Assembly (NCBI GenBank): GCA_900551105.1
Contig: URUT01000001.1
Coordinates: forward strand, 857-64,856
Source: an uncultured Mycoplasmatota bacterium
GTDB lineage: Bacteria; Bacillota_I; Bacilli_A; RF39; UBA660
Length of the DNA stretch: 64,000 nucleotides
Direction of reading: 5' to 3'
Shown here: positions 19,976-26,359 of the stretch, piece after piece
Position numbering within the stretch: position 1 is the first letter of the stretch
How the letters are laid out: each line of letters begins with the position of its first letter
Position numbers and translations under genes: made by a program
Notes under the pieces: model-generated
What the model was told of the DNA's origin: nothing
The model's database searches: none
The model's input: only the letters and a program-made list of their open reading frames with translations

Positions 19976-20049
19976 GCTGATTTAGTTTAGTGGTAGAATA
20001 GAAGCATGGTAAGCTTCAGAGGACTGTTCAATTCAGTCATTCAGCACCA
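19976..20049 (+). tRNA. tRNA-Thr(GGU), atypical arms
   Basis: A 74-nt cloverleaf by hand folding. Acceptor GCTGATT / ATTCAGC has one U.U mismatch. The D-loop contains GG. The anticodon stem GAAGC / GCTTC encloses loop AU-GGU-AA. The variable loop is 4 nt. T-arm GACTG-TTCAATT-CAGTC, then discriminator A and an encoded CCA. The D-stem has two G.U pairs. Confidence 0.6.
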
Positions 20050-20059
20050 GATTGCTACC

Positions 20060-20101
20060 AAACTCGAACTTTTCAATTTTTTTGATTAGTTCGAGTTTTA
20101 A
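20060..20101 (+). terminator. intrinsic terminator after the tRNA
   Basis: Ten-bp stem AAACTCGAAC / GTTCGAGTTT with a T-rich loop, then TTT. Confidence 0.5.
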
Positions 20102-20168
20102 TATACTTTAATATGATAAAGTAACAATAGAAAAAAAGGAATCTTAAAACTATGGTCAGGGGGTCTTA

Positions 20169-21056
20169 ATGAAACAAGAAATAATAAAGTCAGAATTAGA
20201 TGTTAAAGGTAGTAAAATTAATGTAGTTAGAGTTGATGGATACGAATATATATCTCTAACCGATTTAGCAAGATATGCCGATGAGGATGATCCAAGATAT
20301 CCGATACAAAACTGGATGAGGAATAAAGATGTTATTTCTTATTTAGGCTTATGGGAAAGTATTAATAATGAAAACTTCAAAGGTGTCGAATTCGACACGT
20401 TTAAAAATGAAGCTGGTAGTAATAAATTTAAAATATCTCCCCAAAAGTGGATTAGGGAAACAAATGCAGTAGGAATGATTTCCAAATCAGGTAATAATGG
20501 TGGAACATATGCTAGAAGTGATATAGCATTTGAATTTGCAAGTTGGTTAAGTCCAGAGTTTAAATTATACTTAATTCAGGAATTTCAAAGATTAAAGAAA
20601 GATGAAGCATATCAAAACAAAATAGACTGGCATGCTAATAGAGTTTTAGCAAAAGTCAGTTATATAGTTCATACTGATGCTATCCAGAGTATTATTGTTC
20701 CTACTCTTACAGAGAAGCAAAAAAAATTCATTTATGCAGAAGAAGCAGATGTTCTAAATGTTGCATTGTTTGGCATAACTGCAAAAGAATGGAGAAATAA
20801 AAATCCAAAATTAGCTGAAAATGGCAATATAAGAGACTATACAGATTTACTACATCTAGTAATATTAAATAATCTAGAAAATATAAACGCAGAATTGATT
20901 AGAATGAATATAAAACAATCTGATAGACTTATTCAATTAAATGAATCAGCAAGAAATCAAATGGAAGCTTTAAGAAATAATAAGAATGTTAAGGAATTAG
21001 AAGTATTACAACAACAAGTAAATGAAGATAATAAATATTTAATTGAGAGTAAATAA
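20169..21056 (+). CDS. KilA-N domain protein (phage / mobile-element associated DNA-binding protein)
   Basis: N-terminal KilA-N pattern (VVRVDGYEYISLTDLARYA...W....V..YLGLWESINN...F...K...I.A.K..WIRETNAVG) with a C-terminal coiled coil, in a 295-aa ORF. Confidence 0.6.
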   Translation: MKQEIIKSELDVKGSKINVVRVDGYEYISLTDLARYADEDDPRYPIQNWMRNKDVISYLGLWESINNENFKGVEFDTFKNEAGSNKFKISPQKWIRETNAVGMISKSGNNGGTYARSDIAFEFASWLSPEFKLYLIQEFQRLKKDEAYQNKIDWHANRVLAKVSYIVHTDAIQSIIVPTLTEKQKKFIYAEEADVLNVALFGITAKEWRNKNPKLAENGNIRDYTDLLHLVILNNLENINAELIRMNIKQSDRLIQLNESARNQMEALRNNKNVKELEVLQQQVNEDNKYLIESK

Positions 21057-21075
21057 AATACAATAAATGAGTTTT

Positions 21076-21105
21076 GATAGTTCCATATTGTGGAACTATT
21101 TTTAT
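21076..21105 (+). terminator. intrinsic terminator
   Basis: Stem AGTTCCA / TGGAACT with loop tattg, then ATTTTTAT. Confidence 0.55.
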
Positions 21106-21309
21106 CTTATTAATGGTGAATTTTTGTTAGAATAATTACGACCCATATATAACTCTTTTGTGTAATTTTTCTAGACATGACATATTATACAATAGGTTAA
21201 TATTTCGAATATCCAAATTGAAATTTATATTTATTTCTGATTTCACAATAAAAATACACATAATATAAAACCAACTTGTAAAAAAGCTGCTTTTGTGTTA
21301 CTATGAATA

Positions 21310-21426
21310 TGTCAAGGAAACTTGCATAAAATAAAAAAAGGGAATACTTAACTTTGCCGAGTTGAGTACTTGCCCATATTTATGGTAAAGCACTTAATCT
21401 ATGCTAGATTGAGTGCTGTTTTTCTT
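21310..21426 (+). ncRNA. small RNA, repeat-family copy 1: putative antisense RNA / antitoxin of a type I TA-like module
   Basis: Extended -10 promoter (TGtTACTAT at 21296-21304). The conserved 5' segment GTCAAGGAAACTTGCATAAAATAAAAAAGG follows. It ends with a 13-bp terminator hairpin AGCACTTAATCTA-tgc-TAGATTGAGTGCT plus a T-run (21389-21426). The same architecture recurs at about 21790 and about 25296, with compensatory changes in the stem. Confidence 0.5.
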
Positions 21427-21436
21427 ATATAGTTTA

Positions 21437-21520
21437 CTACTTTACTAAAGTAAAAAGTAAGGCTATTAGTAAGAAGATAATAATGATTAAAGAAGAGATT
21501 AAAAAATCTTTCTTGTGCAT
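21437..21520 (-). CDS. 27-aa hydrophobic peptide MHKKDFLISSLIIIIFLLIALLFTLVK, candidate type I toxin
   Basis: Strong SD GGAGG sits 9 nt before the ATG. The ORF is convergent with the + strand sRNA and ends 10 nt from its terminator hairpin. The SD can pair with an upstream CCTCC (CCTCC-aactatataaggaa-GGAGG) to form a sequestering hairpin. A paralogous peptide is at 21911-21982. Confidence 0.45.
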   Translation of the reverse strand: MHKKDFLISSLIIIIFLLIALLFTLVK

Positions 21521-21789
21521 AACTATCAGCCTCCTTCCTTATATAGTTGGAGGCAAGCACTCAACAGTTAAATATTTCCCTGTAAAAATTGTACTATATA
21601 AATTTTTACATAACAAGCGAACAATAGAAAATTTTTGTAAAAAATATTAAAATTATGTTAGTTAATAGTGATTATACTAACTATTTCTTTTACCCTAGAA
21701 ATTGTTCTACTTCTTCCTTTAGGACACTAAATTGTTTAATAATATAAAACCAACTTGTAAAAAAAGCTGCTTTTGTGTTATTATGAATA

Positions 21790-21901
21790 TGTCAAGGAAA
21801 CTTGCATAAAATAAAAAAGGAACATTCAATATTGCACTGTTGAGTGTAGCCAAAAATATGGGTTCCACCTAAATCATTGCTGAGTTAGGTGGATTTCTTT
21901 T
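21790..21901 (+). ncRNA. small RNA, repeat-family copy 2
   Basis: Extended -10 (TGtTATTAT, 21776-21784), the same conserved 5' segment, and a terminator hairpin CCACCTAAATCA-ttgc-TGAGTTAGGTGG (21865-21892) plus a T-run. The stem differs from copy 1 but still pairs. Confidence 0.5.
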
Positions 21902-21910
21902 ATATTAAAG

Positions 21911-21982
21911 CTATAAATAACAATAATAATAAAAGAAGATAATAATTACTAAAGCTAAGACTAAAAAATCTTTCTTATTCAT
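21911..21982 (-). CDS. 23-aa hydrophobic peptide MNKKDFLVLALVIIIFFYYYCYL, candidate type I toxin
   Basis: SD GGGAGG lies 8 nt before the ATG. The ORF is convergent with sRNA copy 2. Its N-terminus M.KKDFL and RBS context are conserved with the copy-1 peptide. Confidence 0.45.
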   Translation of the reverse strand: MNKKDFLVLALVIIIFFYYYCYL

Positions 21983-22107
21983 CTTTATCGCCTCCCTTCT
22001 TATTGAAGTTCGGCTCCATCCAACTTATTAAACGTTCCTTACTTGCAATGACAACAAACAAGTGTTTGAAATGTAAGATTTTTTTTAAGATGATTAAGGG
22101 TGATAAA

Positions 22108-23340
22108 ATGACAAAATATATAACTTTAAAAAACACTAATTTTGAAATTCTAGTTCCTGCAACATTAAAAACTTATGGAGAAGAAGTATTAAAATATTCA
22201 TCAAAAAAGTTAAAAGAATATTTATTGTTTTTTAAAGAGAAACCTAAGGATATAAAAATAAAAGGCTCCTTTTTAACCAATTATAGTGACTTTATAAATA
22301 GAATAAAAGAAGTATCAGGACCAAACGTTCAACTACCACCAGATTGGGCAACTGGCTGCTTTTATGGTGGTGAAATTCAAATTTTACTTGACGAAAATAA
22401 ACCATACGAAAAATTTACTACTCTTGCTCACGAAACATTTCATATATTATTTTCTAAATTCATTTATGAAAAATACAATATAAGTAGAATAGTATGGCTT
22501 GATGAAGCTCTAGCTAGTAGCTTTGATGGTACCACCGAAAAATTAATTAAAGATAATACTTTTAAAGACATAGTAAATAAATTAATAAATAATGAAAAAC
22601 TTCCTAAATTAAACAATTTATCTTTTGCTAAAGGCAACATCGTAAGCGATGAGTATAACGGCTATGACTTATTTAAAGTAGTTGGTAGATACCTAATTGA
22701 AACCAAAAGTAATTTACTGTCATATATCAAAAACGAAGAACAAATTTTAAACGATGGAGAAACTTTATTAGATGAAAGCATTAACTACTTTAAATCAAAA
22801 TATAATTTAAGCAAAAATTATTATTGGCTTTACAAAACACCAAAAAGCTTAGATGATTTAATCATGAATAGTGATGGTACATCTTTAACAAGGCTCTGCT
22901 TTATTAACTCTAAAGATGAAAAGAAATGTAGCTTAAATGGTATCAAAGAATTTTTACCAATTTTTAAAGAAACCTCTGCTTGGTTAGATATTTATTTTAA
23001 GGGGCAAATTCCAAATTTTACACCAAAATACAAAATAGATAATTTAACTCTATTTAGACAGGAAGTAATTGATATTATGAATACTATTCCTTACGGAAAA
23101 ACGATAACCTATAATGCCATTGCTAAATCTATTGCTAAAAAAAGGAAAATATCAAAAATGTCAGGGCAAGCAGTAGGTGGAGCCGTAGGATGGAACCCAA
23201 TTTGTATCATCATCCCATGTCATAGAGTAGTAGGAGCAAATGGCAATTTAACTGGCTATGGTGGCGGCCTAAACAATAAAATAGAACTTTTAAAAATAGA
23301 AAAAAATAATATGCAAGATTTTCATCTTCCGAAGATTTAG
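22108..23340 (+). CDS. fusion protein: N-terminal HExxH (zinc-metallopeptidase-like) domain plus C-terminal methylated-DNA--protein-cysteine methyltransferase (Ogt/MGMT) domain
   Basis: The C-terminal 90 aa carry the MGMT DNA-binding and active-site signature (IPYGKTITYNAIAKSI...SGQAVGGAVGWNPICIIIPCHRVVGANG...GYGGGLNNKIELLKIE). The N-terminal region of about 320 aa contains TLAHETFHILF (HExxH) and has no MGMT N-domain. The start is chosen at ATG 22108 (RBS AAGGGTGA); the ORF is open from 22003. Confidence 0.65.
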   Translation: MTKYITLKNTNFEILVPATLKTYGEEVLKYSSKKLKEYLLFFKEKPKDIKIKGSFLTNYSDFINRIKEVSGPNVQLPPDWATGCFYGGEIQILLDENKPYEKFTTLAHETFHILFSKFIYEKYNISRIVWLDEALASSFDGTTEKLIKDNTFKDIVNKLINNEKLPKLNNLSFAKGNIVSDEYNGYDLFKVVGRYLIETKSNLLSYIKNEEQILNDGETLLDESINYFKSKYNLSKNYYWLYKTPKSLDDLIMNSDGTSLTRLCFINSKDEKKCSLNGIKEFLPIFKETSAWLDIYFKGQIPNFTPKYKIDNLTLFRQEVIDIMNTIPYGKTITYNAIAKSIAKKRKISKMSGQAVGGAVGWNPICIIIPCHRVVGANGNLTGYGGGLNNKIELLKIEKNNMQDFHLPKI

Positions 23341-23388
23341 ATAGTATAATTTTCCTTAAACTACAAAAAATAAAAAGGGAGGAAAATT

Positions 23389-23604
23389 ATGAATAAAGTA
23401 CCAAATATAATTAGTACAAAAGATTTAGATTATCTAAGTGACATGTTTAACTGGAACTACGGCGCATACAAATCTTGCATCAATATGCTTGAAGAAATCA
23501 CTGATCAAAAGCTATGTAATTTAGCTTCAAAATGTGCAAAATTATTTGCAACTAACATGGATAATGTTTTAAACATTCTAGAAAGTGGTGAAGCAAATGA
23601 ATAA
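23389..23604 (+). CDS. CotF-like (Coat_F domain) spore coat protein, small
   Basis: Coat_F pattern (DLDYLSDMF..E..AYKSC....EEITDQKL) in a 71-aa ORF. It is paired and overlapping with the next Coat_F gene, as is typical. Confidence 0.5.
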   Translation: MNKVPNIISTKDLDYLSDMFNWNYGAYKSCINMLEEITDQKLCNLASKCAKLFATNMDNVLNILESGEANE

Positions 23605-23920
23605 AAATATGGTTCAAAATAAAAAAACAACCACGCCAAAAGGTATTTGTTTAAACGATAAAGATTATATGAATAGTATCTTATCATCTCTTAAAGAAAT
23701 GAGTAAGAATTACACAGTAGCGCTAACTGAAGCTAGTAATGAAACTTTATTTAAATCAATAAAAAAAGATTTTGACAATATCATTAAAATGCAAAGAGAA
23801 GTTTATGAAGAAATGTTTACAAATGGCTGGTATGCTTTAGAAAAATCTGAAACCACAAAAATCAAAACTAAATATGATATGTTATGTACTGAACTAAGTG
23901 ATTTAGAAAGTGAGGAATAA
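23585..23920 (+). CDS. CotF-like (Coat_F domain) spore coat protein
   Basis: LNDKDYMNSILSSLKEMSKNYTVALTEASNETLFKSIKKDF......EEMFTNGWY matches the Coat_F consensus (lnD.D.l...L...K...a....Ea.n..lr.....f......e.f..M...GWY). Confidence 0.6.
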   Translation: MVKQMNKNMVQNKKTTTPKGICLNDKDYMNSILSSLKEMSKNYTVALTEASNETLFKSIKKDFDNIIKMQREVYEEMFTNGWYALEKSETTKIKTKYDMLCTELSDLESEE

Positions 23921-23969
23921 TCCTCATTTTTTCTTTTATTTTATCAAAAACATGATATAATACTTATAT

Positions 23970-24045
23970 GCTGAAATAGCTCAATCGGTAGAGCAACGCC
24001 CTCGTAACGCGTAGGTTGTAGGTTCAAGTCCTATTTTCAGCACCA
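23970..24045 (+). tRNA. tRNA-Thr(CGU)
   Basis: A 76-nt canonical cloverleaf. Acceptor GCTGAAA / TTTCAGC is perfect. D-arm GCTC-AATCGGTA-GAGC. Anticodon loop CU-CGU-AA. T-arm GTAGG-TTCAAGT-CCTAT. Discriminator A and CCA are encoded. Confidence 0.85.
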
Positions 24046-24223: not shown

Positions 24224-25258
24224 ATGAAAAAGAAAACTTTATATATCTTATTTAGTGCTTTAATGATTATTGCACTAACAGGGTGCGGAAAAACCATCAC
24301 AAAAGAAAATAATGTTAAAATTAAAGATGCCGAAACTAAATCAATCAAATTCACGGACTTTGATAACGGTTTAATTAAAATGAAAGTACCTGACGGCTGG
24401 AAAGTTGACGTTTTAGGTGATTATATTCATTACACAGTTAAAGCATATAACCCTCAGAAACCAATTTATCAATTTTATTTTAACTTAAAGGTTGAAGGAT
24501 TTAATAAGAGTGAAGAAGCAAAAAAATGGCAACAAAAATATTATCCTGACAGCATATTTGCTAAAGCATCAGTTATTGCTACTAAAGATACTGAAGGATA
24601 TTACAAAATTTTTAACGATATGGGGCCTCTAAACAACACCGAAAAGTTTACATTCCCAACTCTAACTGATTTTACAGTAATTGAAAATCTTGGCCAAGGC
24701 GTTTTCGGTGGTGACACTTTAAGAGCAACCTTTAAAGATGCAAATAACGAAGAAGGGGAAGGCATCTTTACAGCATACGTTTATGATGCTGGACCATATT
24801 ATGTAAACGAAAATATAATATCTGGTAAAAAAATAGACACTTACTATTTAAGTGTATATGATTCAATATTTATTACAGCTCCAAAAGACGAATTTATCAA
24901 TTGGGAAGAAACCCTAAATACAATTGCTGGTTCACTAGAATTTACTGACACCTTTTTAAATGGATTTAATAAAGAACAAGATGCTGTAATGAAAAATTTC
25001 CAAAGTATCAGAAATATCTGTAATCAAATATCTGATGGAATTATGGACTCTTGGGCAAAAAGAAGTGCAAGCTTTGATATTATGAGTCAAAAACAAAGTG
25101 ATGCAACTCTTGGCTATGAAAGAGTTTATGATACTGAAACAAATGAAACCTATAAAGCATATAACGGATTTACCGATGACTATGATGGCGAAAGATATAA
25201 ATCAGTAACTGATGAAATGTATACTAAAGGAATCAGTGGTTATATTGAAAAGGATTAG
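24224..25258 (+). CDS. lipoprotein, hypothetical
   Basis: Signal peptide with lipobox LTGC (MKKKTLYILFSALMIIALTGCGK) in a 344-aa ORF. Confidence 0.55.
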   Translation: MKKKTLYILFSALMIIALTGCGKTITKENNVKIKDAETKSIKFTDFDNGLIKMKVPDGWKVDVLGDYIHYTVKAYNPQKPIYQFYFNLKVEGFNKSEEAKKWQQKYYPDSIFAKASVIATKDTEGYYKIFNDMGPLNNTEKFTFPTLTDFTVIENLGQGVFGGDTLRATFKDANNEEGEGIFTAYVYDAGPYYVNENIISGKKIDTYYLSVYDSIFITAPKDEFINWEETLNTIAGSLEFTDTFLNGFNKEQDAVMKNFQSIRNICNQISDGIMDSWAKRSASFDIMSQKQSDATLGYERVYDTETNETYKAYNGFTDDYDGERYKSVTDEMYTKGISGYIEKD

Positions 25259-25295
25259 AACTTGAAAAGAGATCTTCTTTTTTGTATAATGTATT

Positions 25296-25407
25296 TGTCA
25301 AGGAAACTTGCATAAAATAAAAAAGGAACATCTAATTTTAGCAGGTTGGGGGTTGTCGATATGTTGGTTTCACCTAAATCATTGCTGAGTTAGGTGATTT
25401 TCTTTTT
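25296..25407 (+). ncRNA. small RNA / 5' leader, repeat-family copy 3, upstream of the DUF1848-like gene
   Basis: Extended -10 (TGtATAAT, 25282-25290), the conserved GTCAAGGAAACTTGCATAAAATAAAAAAGGAACAT segment, and a terminator hairpin TCACCTAAATCA-ttgc-TGAGTTAGGTGA (25370-25397) plus T-run. This copy has no opposite-strand peptide ORF, and the next gene starts at 25472. Confidence 0.5.
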
Positions 25408-25471
25408 ATACTAAAACTACGAATAGTAATAATACTAATAGGAAGATAATAATGATTAAGGAGCGAAATCT

Positions 25472-26359
25472 ATGATTTTATTTGCTAGCGGTCGAACAGA
25501 CATACCTGCCTTTTACTCAAACTGGTTTCTAAATAGGGTAGATGCGGGCTTTGTAGATGTAAGAAATCCTTTTAACCCAAATCTAATAAGTAGAATTAAC
25601 TTTAGCGATGTAGATTTAATCATGTTTTGTAGTAAAAATCCGATACCAATAATTGATAAATTAGACAAAATAAAACTACCGTTATTATTTCACGTAACAA
25701 TAACGCCATACGGCCGTGACATTGAACCAAATATTATAGATAAAACTGGGATTATTGAAGGCGTAAAAAAACTATCTTTAAAACTGGGCATTGATAATGT
25801 CGTATTAAGATATGATCCCATCTTTCTAAGTGAAAAATATAACGTAGAATACCACATCAAAGCTTTTAATAAACTTTGCACAAAGCTAAATGGTTATGTT
25901 AATAAAGTAATCATCTCTTTTATGGACGAATATAAAAATGTAAAAAATAACAAAAACATCCTAAAATATCGCATTATTACTAAAGATGACTACAAACAAA
26001 TAGGTCTAGCTTTTAGTAAAATAGCCAGCAAAAATAATATGACCGTCCAAACTTGCTTTGAAGACAAAGACTTAATTGAATACGGCTTTATTAAAGGCGA
26101 ATGTCTTTCTCATGAACTCGCTTATTATTTAACTGGCAAAAAATATAAAACCTCAAACGTAAGAAAAGAAAAAAAGTGTTCCTGCGTGCAGATGGTTGAT
26201 ATTGGTGATTATAATTCATGCATGCACTTATGTAAATATTGCTATGCTAATTATGATGAAAAAGCTGTAAGTACCAATTTTAAAAATCATGACGATAACT
26301 CATCTTTACTAATTGGACACATTAAAGATAATGACACAATCAAAATCAGAACCAAATAA
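25472..26359 (+). CDS. DUF1848-like Cys-rich protein, uncharacterised
   Basis: N-terminus MILFASGRTDIPAFYSNWFLNRV and a C-terminal Cys cluster (CSCVQMV...CMHLCKYCYANY) in a 295-aa ORF. The RBS AAGGAG lies 8 nt upstream. The family name is from memory only. Confidence 0.4.
   Translation: MILFASGRTDIPAFYSNWFLNRVDAGFVDVRNPFNPNLISRINFSDVDLIMFCSKNPIPIIDKLDKIKLPLLFHVTITPYGRDIEPNIIDKTGIIEGVKKLSLKLGIDNVVLRYDPIFLSEKYNVEYHIKAFNKLCTKLNGYVNKVIISFMDEYKNVKNNKNILKYRIITKDDYKQIGLAFSKIASKNNMTVQTCFEDKDLIEYGFIKGECLSHELAYYLTGKKYKTSNVRKEKKCSCVQMVDIGDYNSCMHLCKYCYANYDEKAVSTNFKNHDDNSSLLIGHIKDNDTIKIRTK

What the first reader, a model, noticed from the sequence alone, without database searches (positions are those of the whole stretch)
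25280..26359. A third copy of the sRNA element acts as a terminator-containing 5' leader of a Cys-rich DUF1848-like gene
The same promoter, conserved 5' segment and terminator recur at 25285-25407 but without an opposite-strand peptide, and the next start codon (25472, RBS AAGGAG) is only 65 nt past the terminator. So expression of the DUF1848-like gene from this promoter needs read-through, as in an attenuator or riboswitch. The same RNA family therefore appears to be used as an antisense RNA at 21.3 and 21.8 kb and as a cis-leader here and possibly for the MGMT fusion. The repeated ATGATTAA(G/A)GA segment after the terminator (mini-ORFs MIKEEIKKSFLCI at copy 1 and MIKERNL at copy 3; mutated in copy 2) hints at a translated leader.
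Basis: partly seen in the sequence, partly recalled or inferred. Interest (0 to 1): 0.6.

Follow-up and report, generated by a model that had tools for sequence, protein, structure and literature searches.

The report
Orphaned antitoxin RNA beside DUF1848 gene
The "leader" in front of the DUF1848 gene is the surviving small-RNA half of a toxin-antitoxin module whose toxin gene was cut off by a ~110-bp deletion, so it is a decayed selfish module rather than a purpose-built riboswitch or attenuator.

Summary
A third copy of the sRNA gene lies at 25262-25408, with promoter, conserved 5' segment and terminator, and the DUF1848 start codon is 65 nt further on.

The interpretation mostly fails. The RNA belongs to a large family: at least 134 copies in uncultured gut Bacilli genomes. 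In about 80-85% of loci it sits convergent to a 20-32 aa hydrophobic ORF, the layout of a type I toxin-antitoxin module.

Copy 3 still carries the last 18 codons and the stop of such a toxin on the minus strand (25406-25462). The supposed leader peptide motif ATGATTAAGGA is the antisense of the toxin's Leu-Ile-Ile-Ile codons.

Close relatives with the same synteny (L157, L163-L168) keep the complete toxin gene and a ~90-nt spacer between the sRNA and DUF1848. The window carries a ~110-bp deletion that joins the toxin remnant to the DUF1848 ribosome-binding site.

No other DUF1848 locus has the element. I found no antiterminator, conserved leader ORF or Rfam match.

DUF1848 has lost its native upstream DNA yet stays under purifying selection. 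It is probably transcribed by passive leak through the sRNA terminator or from a weak promoter-like site in the remnant. Sequence alone cannot decide between these.

The parts
25257..25275 (.). Degenerate hairpin directly after the stop codon of the upstream 344-aa gene. The sRNA -35 element lies in its loop. It is a perfect stem (AGAACT...AGTTCT) in the relatives L106, L157 and L158.
   Evidence: Alignment; folds (window -3.9 kcal/mol with a shifted stem, relatives -6.2 and -6.4). The family-wide hairpin-plus-promoter module is shown.
25262..25290 (+). Promoter of sRNA copy 3: TTGAAA, 17 nt, TATAAT.
   Evidence: 11 of 12 consensus matches. It aligns with the promoters of copies 1 and 2 and is retained in all deletion-haplotype relatives.
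25297..25408 (+). sRNA copy 3, an orphan type I antitoxin RNA. It has a 5' GNRA hairpin (25299-25310), an A-rich linker, stem-loop 2 (about 25325-25357, weakened by an A.G mismatch in this genome), a terminator stem (25370-25397) and a U-tract (25398-25407).
   Evidence: Covariance model hit of 89.5 bits, E 7.5e-20. Folds. Family covariation.
25406..25462 (-). 3' remnant of the toxin ORF: 18 codons (SLIIIIFLLVLLLFVVLV) plus the stop codon. It has no start codon, RBS or promoter.
   Evidence: Translation. Homologous to the intact toxin MSKKDFLVLSLIIIIFVLVLLLFVVLA at the same locus in L157.
25405..25433 (+). Weak promoter-like site, TTTATA-17-AATAAT, inside the U-tract and toxin remnant. It is a possible independent DUF1848 promoter.
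   Evidence: 9 of 12 matches. Such sites are no more frequent in this region than in shuffled sequence (27 found against 34 expected). The same site occurs in the intact haplotype.
25458..25463 (+). DUF1848 ribosome-binding site AAGGAG, lying on the deletion junction (GATTAA|GGAG).
25472..26359 (+). DUF1848 gene (295 aa). It is intact and under purifying selection.
   Evidence: Pfam PF08902, E 1.6e-88. dN/dS is 0.11-0.13 between deletion haplotypes.
21276..21426 (+). Copy 1: promoter (TTGTAA, 17 nt, TACTAT) and sRNA (21311-21426).
   Evidence: 109.5 bits.
21437..21520 (-). Copy 1 toxin ORF MHKKDFLISSLIIIIFLLIALLFTLVK with RBS GGAGG. Its promoter-like site is TTGTTA-17-TACAAT at 21616-21588.
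21755..21901 (+). Copy 2: promoter and sRNA (21791-21901).
   Evidence: 101.7 bits.
21911..21982 (-). Copy 2 toxin ORF MNKKDFLVLALVIIIFFYYYCYL. Its C-terminus is frameshifted by a 1-nt deletion relative to the sister genome.

Best explanation
Copy 3 is the antitoxin-sRNA half of a chromosomal type I toxin-antitoxin module. In the intact module, a ~110-nt sRNA is transcribed toward a tiny membrane-peptide gene on the other strand. The sRNA has a 5' hairpin, an A-rich linker, stem-loop 2 and a terminator. By analogy it silences the toxin mRNA by antisense pairing with its 3' region; this step is inferred.

In the window's lineage a ~110-bp deletion removed four things: the first 9 toxin codons, the toxin RBS, the toxin 5'UTR and promoter, and the DNA that used to lie upstream of DUF1848. 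This shown deletion joined the toxin's 3' remnant to the DUF1848 ribosome-binding site.

The sRNA gene survived with a near-consensus promoter and an unweakened terminator. It is therefore an orphan antitoxin. It may still pair in trans with transcripts of the paralogous copy 2, with which it shares exact runs of 35 and 26 nt (inferred).

DUF1848 sits behind this terminator by accident of the deletion. Its transcription must now come from upstream. I favour unregulated leak-through of the sRNA terminator, about 55%, over the weak promoter-like site at 25405-25433, about 35%. This is not a riboswitch, a regulated attenuator or a translated leader.
For: Family identity:
- The covariance model scores copy 3 at 89.5 bits.
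- In an alifold consensus of 101 distinct family sRNAs, stem-loop 2 (6 bp) and the terminator (11 bp) show many compensatory pair types.

Link to a toxin:
- 97 of 121 evaluable family loci passed a strict filter for a convergent, RBS-preceded hydrophobic ORF. A few of these are probably not true toxins, while about 6 more real ones failed only the RBS filter. At least five peptide subfamilies are represented.
- 60 of 89 loci have a promoter-like site ending 60-79 nt upstream of the toxin ATG.

Origin of copy 3:
- The toxin-frame remnant is visible.
- Contigs L157 and L163-L168 have the same flanking genes (344-aa gene, DUF1848, TetR, MMPL). L157's DUF1848 is 96.4% identical in nucleotides to the window's (L163 and L166: dS 0.08-0.09). 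They carry the intact toxin with RBS GGGAGG plus a ~90-nt spacer.
- The window, L158-L162 and L106 share the same deletion junction.

Not a conserved leader:
- None of 33 other DUF1848 loci has the element.
- About 13 other toxin-less orphans in the family have varied downstream contexts.
- No Rfam hit.
- The + strand mini-ORF is not conserved.

The gene is still used: dN/dS is 0.11-0.13 among deletion haplotypes separated by dS 0.18-0.31.

Precedent: an expressed orphan type I antitoxin, OrzPmg, is documented in E. coli (PMC11264685).
Against: - No expression data exist for any of these RNAs. Toxicity of the peptides and antisense control are inferred from architecture only.
- The 100 nt spanning the terminator and remnant (25366-25465) are invariant among four distinct deletion haplotypes, while stem-loop 2 and the RBS-ATG spacer vary. 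This hints at a constraint my model does not fully explain. It could be a promoter, or a leader function.
- The deletion did remove DUF1848's former upstream DNA, so a functional dependence on the sRNA promoter is plausible.
- In this genome the copy-2 toxin is frameshifted, which weakens the trans-antitoxin rationale for keeping copy 3.
Confidence: 0.8

Rival explanations
1. Copy 3 acts as a regulated cis-leader for DUF1848, as a transcription attenuator or riboswitch, possibly with a translated leader peptide. Conditional read-through of its terminator would control the gene.
For: - The geometry fits: a strong promoter, a structured RNA, a terminator, then 65 nt to the RBS and ATG.
- DUF1848 lost its own upstream region in the deletion yet remains under purifying selection.
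- The terminator-plus-remnant block is invariant among deletion haplotypes.
- Equilibrium folding of nascent copy-3 RNA favours a rearranged structure over the local terminator hairpin. The probability of the local hairpin is 0.06 in the window's copy 3, against a family median of 0.96.
Against: - The arrangement arose by deletion within a toxin-antitoxin module and is confined to one lineage.
- The rearranged structure is an extended hairpin whose 3' arm still abuts the U-tract, so it is itself terminator-like and not an antiterminator.
- The terminator is identical to that of the toxin-linked copy 2 and of many family members, so it has not been tuned.
- No Rfam family matches at E up to 5.
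- The mini-ORF is the antisense of toxin codons and is not conserved.
Confidence: 0.07
2. The origin is as in the best explanation, but the sRNA and DUF1848 are independent transcription units. DUF1848 would be driven by a weak sigma-A-type promoter inside the toxin remnant (TTTATA-17-AATAAT, 25405-25433). Read-through would be irrelevant.
For: - The promoter-like site was found.
- It lies inside the 100-nt block that is invariant among deletion haplotypes.
- The terminator looks efficient: -11.1 kcal/mol with 9 U in the next 10 nt.
Against: - It matches only 9 of 12 consensus positions and has no TG extension.
- Promoter-like hits in this AT-rich region are no more frequent than in shuffled sequence, 27 against 34 expected.
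- The same hexamers occur in the intact haplotype and in copy 2 as a by-product of the U-tract and Ile/Leu codons (sequence).
- Promoters that are clearly used in this family look much stronger, for example TTGTCA-17-TGTTATTAT.
Confidence: 0.35
3. Copy 3 is a dead relic. Having lost its toxin, the sRNA gene is no longer useful and is simply decaying, with no role in trans or in cis.
For: - The cognate toxin is gone.
- In this genome stem-loop 2 has an A.G mismatch and a G.U pair that relatives lack.
- The copy-2 toxin is also damaged.
- About 10% of family loci are toxin-less orphans at various stages of decay.
Against: - The promoter (11 of 12), the 5' hairpin and the terminator are intact in four distinct deletion haplotypes whose neighbouring gene has diverged by dS up to 0.31.
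- The covariance model score is still 89.5 bits, higher than the 77-78 bits of the sRNA in the toxin-intact haplotype.
Confidence: 0.15
4. The element is a generic intergenic repeat of the REP or MITE type, with no RNA function.
For: It occurs at more than 130 sites in more than 100 metagenome-assembled genomes, sometimes 2-4 times in tandem.
Against: - Each copy carries an oriented promoter and terminator.
- Base pairs covary.
- The copies are tied to a convergent peptide gene in about 80-85% of loci.
- The toxin 5'UTR shares a stem-loop 2 arm in 88 of 91 loci.
- None was found on viral contigs or plasmids.
Confidence: 0.01

Closest known systems
Bacillus subtilis convergent, 3'-overlapping type I toxin-antitoxin systems (txpA/RatA, bsrG/SR4, bsrE/SR5, yonT/SR6)
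   Same: Both have a small hydrophobic toxin ORF with its own promoter. Both have an antisense sRNA of about 100 nt, transcribed convergently from a sigma-A-type (often extended -10) promoter and meeting the toxin gene at its 3' end. In B. subtilis the sRNA binds the toxin mRNA 3' region, recruits RNase III and, for SR4, also occludes the RBS (PMC5848175).
   Different: There is no sequence or Rfam similarity. The toxins here are shorter (23-32 aa) and match no Pfam or NCBIfam model. The sRNA 5' domain is near-invariant across at least five toxin subfamilies. For copy 3 the toxin is truncated. None of the RNA-RNA steps has been tested here.
Orphan type I antitoxin OrzPmg of E. coli MG1655 (orz-only loci)
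   Same: The antitoxin sRNA gene is retained and conserved, while the cognate toxin ORF is deleted and leaves only a short fragment of the toxin gene. In E. coli the orphan is expressed (PMC11264685).
   Different: zor/orz is a divergent, trans-pairing system of Proteobacteria. There the fragment left is toxin 5'UTR; here it is the toxin 3' coding end. Here the deletion also placed a same-strand gene 65 nt behind the sRNA terminator. Expression has not been tested here.
par (fst RNA I / RNA II) of Enterococcus faecalis
   Same: Both have convergent toxin mRNA and antitoxin RNA converging on a terminator region, with additional short repeated segments in the 5' regions of both RNAs. Here the toxin 5'UTR carries a copy of one stem-loop 2 arm in 88 of 91 loci. 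The chromosomal par_EF0409 also sits between two metabolic operons with no proven regulatory link to them.
   Different: The peptides have no Fst-like sequence and there is no Rfam match. The repeats here are inverted at the DNA level (same sense in both RNAs). My comparison with the direct repeats of par rests on my own knowledge of that system.
Terminator-based cis leaders (riboswitches, T-boxes, peptide attenuators)
   Same: The linear order is the same: promoter, structured RNA, intrinsic terminator, then the gene.
   Different: There is no conserved linkage to the downstream gene, no antiterminator that frees the U-tract, no conserved leader ORF and no known aptamer. The arrangement was created by a recent deletion.

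Membership tests
Type I toxin-antitoxin module (convergent type) | A small (under 60 aa) hydrophobic ORF with an RBS, encoded opposite or convergent to the sRNA | tested here: not met
   This row is for copy 3 itself. Only 18 C-terminal codons and the stop remain, with no start codon, RBS or promoter. The feature is met for copy 1, for copy 2 (frameshifted) and for about 80-85% of evaluable family loci. It is also met at the orthologous locus in L157 and L163-L168. Copy 3 is therefore a decayed member.
Type I toxin-antitoxin module (convergent type) | An sRNA gene with its own promoter and intrinsic terminator, oriented toward the toxin gene | tested here: met
   Promoter matching 11 of 12 consensus positions. 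Terminator hairpin of -11.1 kcal/mol with a U-tract. The toxin stop codon (25406-25408) overlaps the end of the U-tract.
Type I toxin-antitoxin module (convergent type) | Antisense complementarity between the sRNA and the toxin mRNA | tested here: inconclusive
   This depends on where the toxin mRNA ends. The sRNA terminator has no good U-tract on the minus strand. About half of the loci (66 of 132) have a bidirectional hairpin upstream of the sRNA promoter that could end the toxin mRNA after it has crossed the whole sRNA gene. No 3'-end data are available.
Type I toxin-antitoxin module (convergent type) | The peptide is toxic and the sRNA neutralises it | not testable with these tools
   Requires expression experiments.
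This sRNA family (covariance model R1) | Consensus sequence and structure: 5' CAAG-GAAA-CUUG hairpin, A-rich linker, stem-loop 2 and terminator | tested here: met
   89.5 bits, E 7.5e-20, with a model built without any sequence from the window or its sister genome. Covariation is shown.
Riboswitch or transcription-attenuator leader | Conserved association of the RNA with the regulated gene across relatives | tested here: not met
   None of 33 other DUF1848 loci examined (at most 81% aa identity) has the element. Among close relatives, one haplotype has a full toxin gene in between. Other orphans in the family have unrelated downstream contexts.
Riboswitch or transcription-attenuator leader | A mutually exclusive antiterminator that prevents a helix forming at the U-tract | tested here: not met
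   The alternative fold pairs the stem-loop 2 arms with the terminator arms into one extended hairpin. Its 3' arm still ends at the U-tract.
Riboswitch or transcription-attenuator leader | A match to a described leader or aptamer family | tested here: not met
   Rfam 15 gave only tRNAs at gathering thresholds and nothing relevant at E up to 5.
Riboswitch or transcription-attenuator leader | A conserved leader peptide ORF (for peptide-dependent attenuation) | tested here: not met
   ATGATTAA is present in 8 of 41 subfamily loci, and 10 of 41 have no + strand ATG. ORF lengths range from 2 to more than 50 aa.
Orphan type I antitoxin (the OrzPmg-like situation) | An intact antitoxin gene, with the cognate toxin ORF deleted and a fragment left behind | tested here: met
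Orphan type I antitoxin (the OrzPmg-like situation) | The orphan sRNA is expressed | not testable with these tools
   No transcript data are available.
REP/MITE-type generic repeat | No oriented gene features, no conserved RNA structure and no gene linkage | tested here: not met
   The copies have a promoter and terminator, show covariation and are linked to toxin genes.

The most novel reading that the evidence does not exclude
After the deletion, the orphan antitoxin gene may have been exapted as the expression cassette of DUF1848. Its strong promoter and leaky terminator would set the level of DUF1848 mRNA. Read-through could be modulated in trans, for example by antisense toxin-mRNA 3'UTRs from paralogous modules pairing with the nascent sRNA. 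That would make it a toxin-antitoxin-derived attenuator coupling a putative Fe-S enzyme gene to the state of the toxin-antitoxin system.
Probability: 0.07. Interest if true: 0.7.

Novelty: new member of a known kind. Interest (0 to 1): 0.33.

Why it matters
For the claim under test, the result is mainly a correction. What looked like a shared sRNA-and-riboswitch family is a toxin-antitoxin module caught decaying, and the natural 'before' allele (toxin intact) still exists in close relatives.

Three things remain useful:
- The family appears absent from Rfam, Pfam and NCBIfam. It has more than 130 copies in uncultured gut Bacilli, with at least five toxin subfamilies sharing one near-invariant sRNA 5' domain.
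- The locus is a clean natural polymorphism, toxin-intact against toxin-deleted. It could show what happens to an antitoxin and to a neighbouring gene when the toxin is lost.
- It is another example of an orphan type I antitoxin. The first confirmed case was reported only in 2024.

Tried and rejected
- Rfam at gathering thresholds and at E up to 5 gave only tRNAs and one spurious hit on a tRNA.
- The phage collection, plasmid collection and viral contigs gave no match to the module.
- Pfam and NCBIfam gave nothing meaningful for six toxin peptides. A PDB sequence search for DUF1848 found nothing.
- Antiterminator hypothesis. Equilibrium folding at first looked supportive: the local terminator probability is 0.06 in the window's copy 3, 0.00 in L158 and 0.18-0.2 in L106, against a family median of 0.96. 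Inspection showed the competing structure is an extended hairpin that still abuts the U-tract, so I rejected it as evidence for read-through.
- Conservation of the remnant as proof of function. The 100-nt invariant block is suggestive. However, the sRNA region and DUF1848 have discordant genealogies (recombination), and only four distinct haplotypes are available, so significance is marginal.
- The promoter scan cannot separate a real DUF1848 promoter from AT-rich background: 27 hits against 34 expected in shuffles. It did not even detect the toxin promoter in L163.
- I considered that the conserved 5' segment hides a minus-strand promoter, since its complement contains TTGACA. No -10 element lies at a usable spacing; I checked this by reading the sequence only.
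Full report
**Observation**

The window has 29.6% G+C. It holds exactly three copies of one element. A three-way alignment shows a shared promoter, an invariant 5' segment (TGTCAAGGAAACTTGCATAAAATAAAAAA), a variable middle part and a terminator.

Pattern searches have a chance expectation of 0.00. An nhmmer profile of the promoter and 5' segment, built from other genomes, hits only 21269-21339, 21748-21820 and 25256-25326. A covariance model built from 44 family members, none from this window or its sister genome, scores 109.5, 101.7 and 89.5 bits at 21311-21425, 21791-21901 and 25297-25406. The next hit scores 16.9 bits.

For copy 3:
- The promoter is TTGAAA-17-TATAAT at 25262-25290.
- The terminator stem lies at 25370-25397 (-11.1 kcal/mol) and is followed by UUUUCUUUUU.
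- The DUF1848 gene (PF08902, E 1.6e-88) starts at 25472 behind AAGGAG.

**What the element is**

Opposite copies 1 and 2 lie tiny ORFs preceded by an RBS: MHKKDFLISSLIIIIFLLIALLFTLVK (21437-21520) and MNKKDFLVLALVIIIFFYYYCYL (21911-21982).

I scanned one genome per species for the 20-mer CAAGGAAACTTGCATAAAAT. Nearly all come from uncultured gut Bacilli, 'Tenericutes' or Erysipelotrichaceae genomes assembled from metagenomes.

Of 121 evaluable instances, 97 passed a strict filter for a convergent 20-32 aa hydrophobic ORF with an RBS. A few of these are probably not true toxins, and about six more real ones failed only the RBS filter. True toxin ORFs end 82-128 nt after the start of the element. 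They fall into at least five peptide subfamilies.

In 60 of 89 loci a TTGnnn-17-TATAAT-like site ends 60-79 nt upstream of the peptide ATG. Across 101 distinct sRNAs the 5' hairpin is invariant. Stem-loop 2 and the terminator show multiple compensatory pair types, for example UA/CG/UG and AU/GC.

This is the anatomy of a convergent type I toxin-antitoxin module, as in B. subtilis yonT/SR6 or bsrG/SR4 (PMC5848175). It is not a member of any curated family. Rfam, Pfam and NCBIfam gave nothing, and no copies were found on phage, plasmid or viral-contig collections. Toxicity and antisense control are inferred, not shown.

**What copy 3 is**

On the minus strand, the toxin reading frame is still open from 25462 down to a stop at 25406-25408. 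It reads SLIIIIFLLVLLLFVVLV*. There is no start codon, RBS or promoter, and the DUF1848 gene begins where the toxin's N-terminal half should be.

The decisive evidence came from close relatives, found through the DUF1848 protein. Contigs L157 and L163-L168 have the same gene order: the 344-aa gene, DUF1848, TetR and MMPL. L157's DUF1848 is 96.4% identical in nucleotides to the window's, and L163 and L166 lie at dS 0.08-0.09 from it. Between the sRNA and DUF1848 they contain:
- a complete toxin gene, MSKKDFLVLSLIII(I/N)F(V/L)LVLLLFVVL(A/V), with RBS GGGAGG;
- a further ~90 nt before the DUF1848 RBS (AAAGGAGGG).

The window, L159-L162 (identical protein), L158 and the sister genome L106 all lack the same ~110 bp. 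The junction reads GATTAA|GGAG.

Copy 3 is therefore a toxin-antitoxin module that lost the toxin's 5' end, its RBS, its 5'UTR and promoter, and the native DNA upstream of DUF1848.

(a) The repeated ATGATTAA(G/A)GA motif is the reverse complement of the toxin codons TCT/TCC-TTA-ATC-ATT-ATT (Ser-Leu-Ile-Ile-Ile). On the + strand it occurs in only 8 of 41 loci of this toxin subfamily. Ten of 41 have no + strand ATG, and + strand ORF lengths vary from 2 to more than 50 aa. A translated leader is refuted.

(b) The MGMT fusion starts at 22108 (410 aa as called in L159). It is separated from the copy-2 terminator by the convergent toxin gene. A promoter-like site lies at 22066-22094. It is not led by the sRNA.

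(c) The attenuator or riboswitch reading fails on several counts.
- The 36 metagenomic DUF1848 loci (at most 81% aa identity) include 33 with readable upstream sequence, and none has the element.
- The group at about 80% identity is translationally coupled to an upstream gene. From the translated sequence it looked YbaK-like to me; I did not test this.
- Others have their own promoters.
- About 13 other toxin-less orphans in the family have varied downstream contexts, often with genes on the opposite strand.
- The copy-3 terminator is identical to that of copy 2 and of many toxin-linked members.

I also tested for an antiterminator. Equilibrium folding of the nascent RNA prefers a rearranged structure in which the stem-loop 2 arms pair with the terminator arms. 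The local-hairpin probability is 0.06 in the window's copy 3, 0.00 in L158 and 0.18-0.2 in L106, against a family median of 0.96. That structure is one long hairpin whose 3' arm still ends at the U-tract, so it would also terminate. It does not support regulated read-through.

**What remains of the idea**

DUF1848 lost its former upstream region but is intact. It evolves under purifying selection among deletion haplotypes (dN/dS 0.11-0.13 at dS 0.18-0.31), so it must still be transcribed. There are three possible sources:
- the sRNA promoter, by leak through the terminator;
- read-through from the 344-aa gene, whose terminator hairpin is damaged in this genome;
- the weak TTTATA-17-AATAAT site at 25405-25433, which also exists in the intact haplotype.

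The 100 nt covering the terminator and remnant are invariant among four distinct deletion haplotypes, whereas stem-loop 2 and the RBS-ATG spacer vary. This is suggestive of constraint. It is weakened by clear recombination. In the DUF1848 tree the toxin-intact haplotypes are closer to the window (dS 0.08-0.11) than the other deletion haplotypes are (0.18 and 0.31). Yet in the sRNA region the deletion haplotypes cluster at 96-98% identity with each other, against 88-90% to the intact haplotype L157.

I favour passive leak-through (about 55%) over a promoter in the remnant (about 35%). Only transcript mapping can decide.

**Why the sRNA is kept**

Its promoter, 5' hairpin and terminator are intact in all deletion haplotypes. 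It scores higher against the family model than the sRNA of the toxin-intact haplotype, 89.5 against 77-78 bits. It shares exact runs of 35 nt and 26 nt with the copy-2 sRNA, so it could pair with any minus-strand transcript crossing copy 2.

Against a trans-antitoxin role in this particular genome, the copy-2 toxin is frameshifted, and stem-loop 2 of copy 3 has acquired a mismatch.

Orphan type I antitoxins are known. OrzPmg is expressed in E. coli MG1655, and orz-only loci occur in about 30% of E. coli genomes (PMC11264685).

**Verdict**

The thing itself is an orphaned antitoxin sRNA of an apparently uncatalogued type I toxin-antitoxin family. A deletion placed it next to DUF1848. It is a new member of a known kind, of modest interest. 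The most novel reading still open is that the orphan has been exapted as the gene's expression cassette.

Noticed in passing
window 21911-21982 (minus strand): The copy-2 toxin ORF has a 1-nt deletion relative to the sister genome L027 (GAAG against GGAAG). Its C-terminus is frameshifted: ...IIIFFYYYCYL* (23 aa) against ...IIIFLLLLLLFIALI* (27 aa). Only copy 1 keeps a canonical toxin in this genome.
   Followed up: yes
window 21361-21374 with 21552-21565, and 21817-21831 with 22026-22040; family loci L001-L120: The toxin 5'UTR carries a same-sense copy of one arm of the sRNA's stem-loop 2, seen as inverted repeats flanking the toxin ORF. It is significant against shuffles in 88 of 91 intact loci. 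This suggests either long-range 5'-3' pairing within the toxin mRNA or a second sRNA contact near the RBS. The copy-1 5'UTR also has an anti-SD hairpin (GCCUCC...GGAGGC).
   Followed up: partly
window 21273-21289 and 25257-25275; family loci: In 66 of 132 instances the sRNA -35 hexamer sits in the loop of a hairpin flanked by an A-tract and a T-tract, for example AAAACGACTTgtcaaaAAGTCGTTTT. The stems covary. It looks like a bidirectional terminator fused to the promoter. The same hairpin-plus-TGTTATGAT module directly drives DUF1848 in L138 and L141.
   Followed up: partly
window 25325-25397; L106, L158, L162: In this locus lineage the stem-loop 2 arms (CAUCUAA and UUGGGUG) are near copies of the terminator arms (CACCUAA and UUAGGUG). 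Two hairpins can therefore rearrange into one extended hairpin of about equal energy. Weaker arm similarity is visible in every sRNA subfamily.
   Followed up: partly
L157, L163-L168 compared with window, L158-L162 and L106: The toxin-intact and toxin-deleted haplotypes of the same locus coexist in human-gut samples. Their genealogy is discordant with the adjacent DUF1848 gene, which indicates recombination. The intact haplotype has a broken sRNA 5' hairpin (CAAGGAAACTCA). In L163-L168 it also has an Asn inside the toxin's hydrophobic core (IIINF).
   Followed up: partly
window 22108-23340 (+): The 'MGMT fusion' has an unannotated ~235-aa N-terminal domain with an HExxH motif (HETFH at 22429-22443). 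This is joined to an O6-alkylguanine transferase domain that has the PCHR active site (from 23215). It may be a metalloprotease-alkyltransferase fusion.
   Followed up: no
window 19976-24045: Two tRNA-Thr genes bracket a block holding a KilA-N domain gene, both intact-looking toxin-antitoxin modules, the MGMT fusion and a CoatF-domain gene. Identity to the sister genome is uneven: 96.6% across the toxin-antitoxin modules but 86-91% upstream. It may be the remnant of an integrated element.
   Followed up: no
L118, L078, L071, L099, L089, L088: Modules of this toxin-antitoxin family often occur as tandem arrays of 2-4 copies, sometimes mixing toxin subfamilies on one contig.
   Followed up: no
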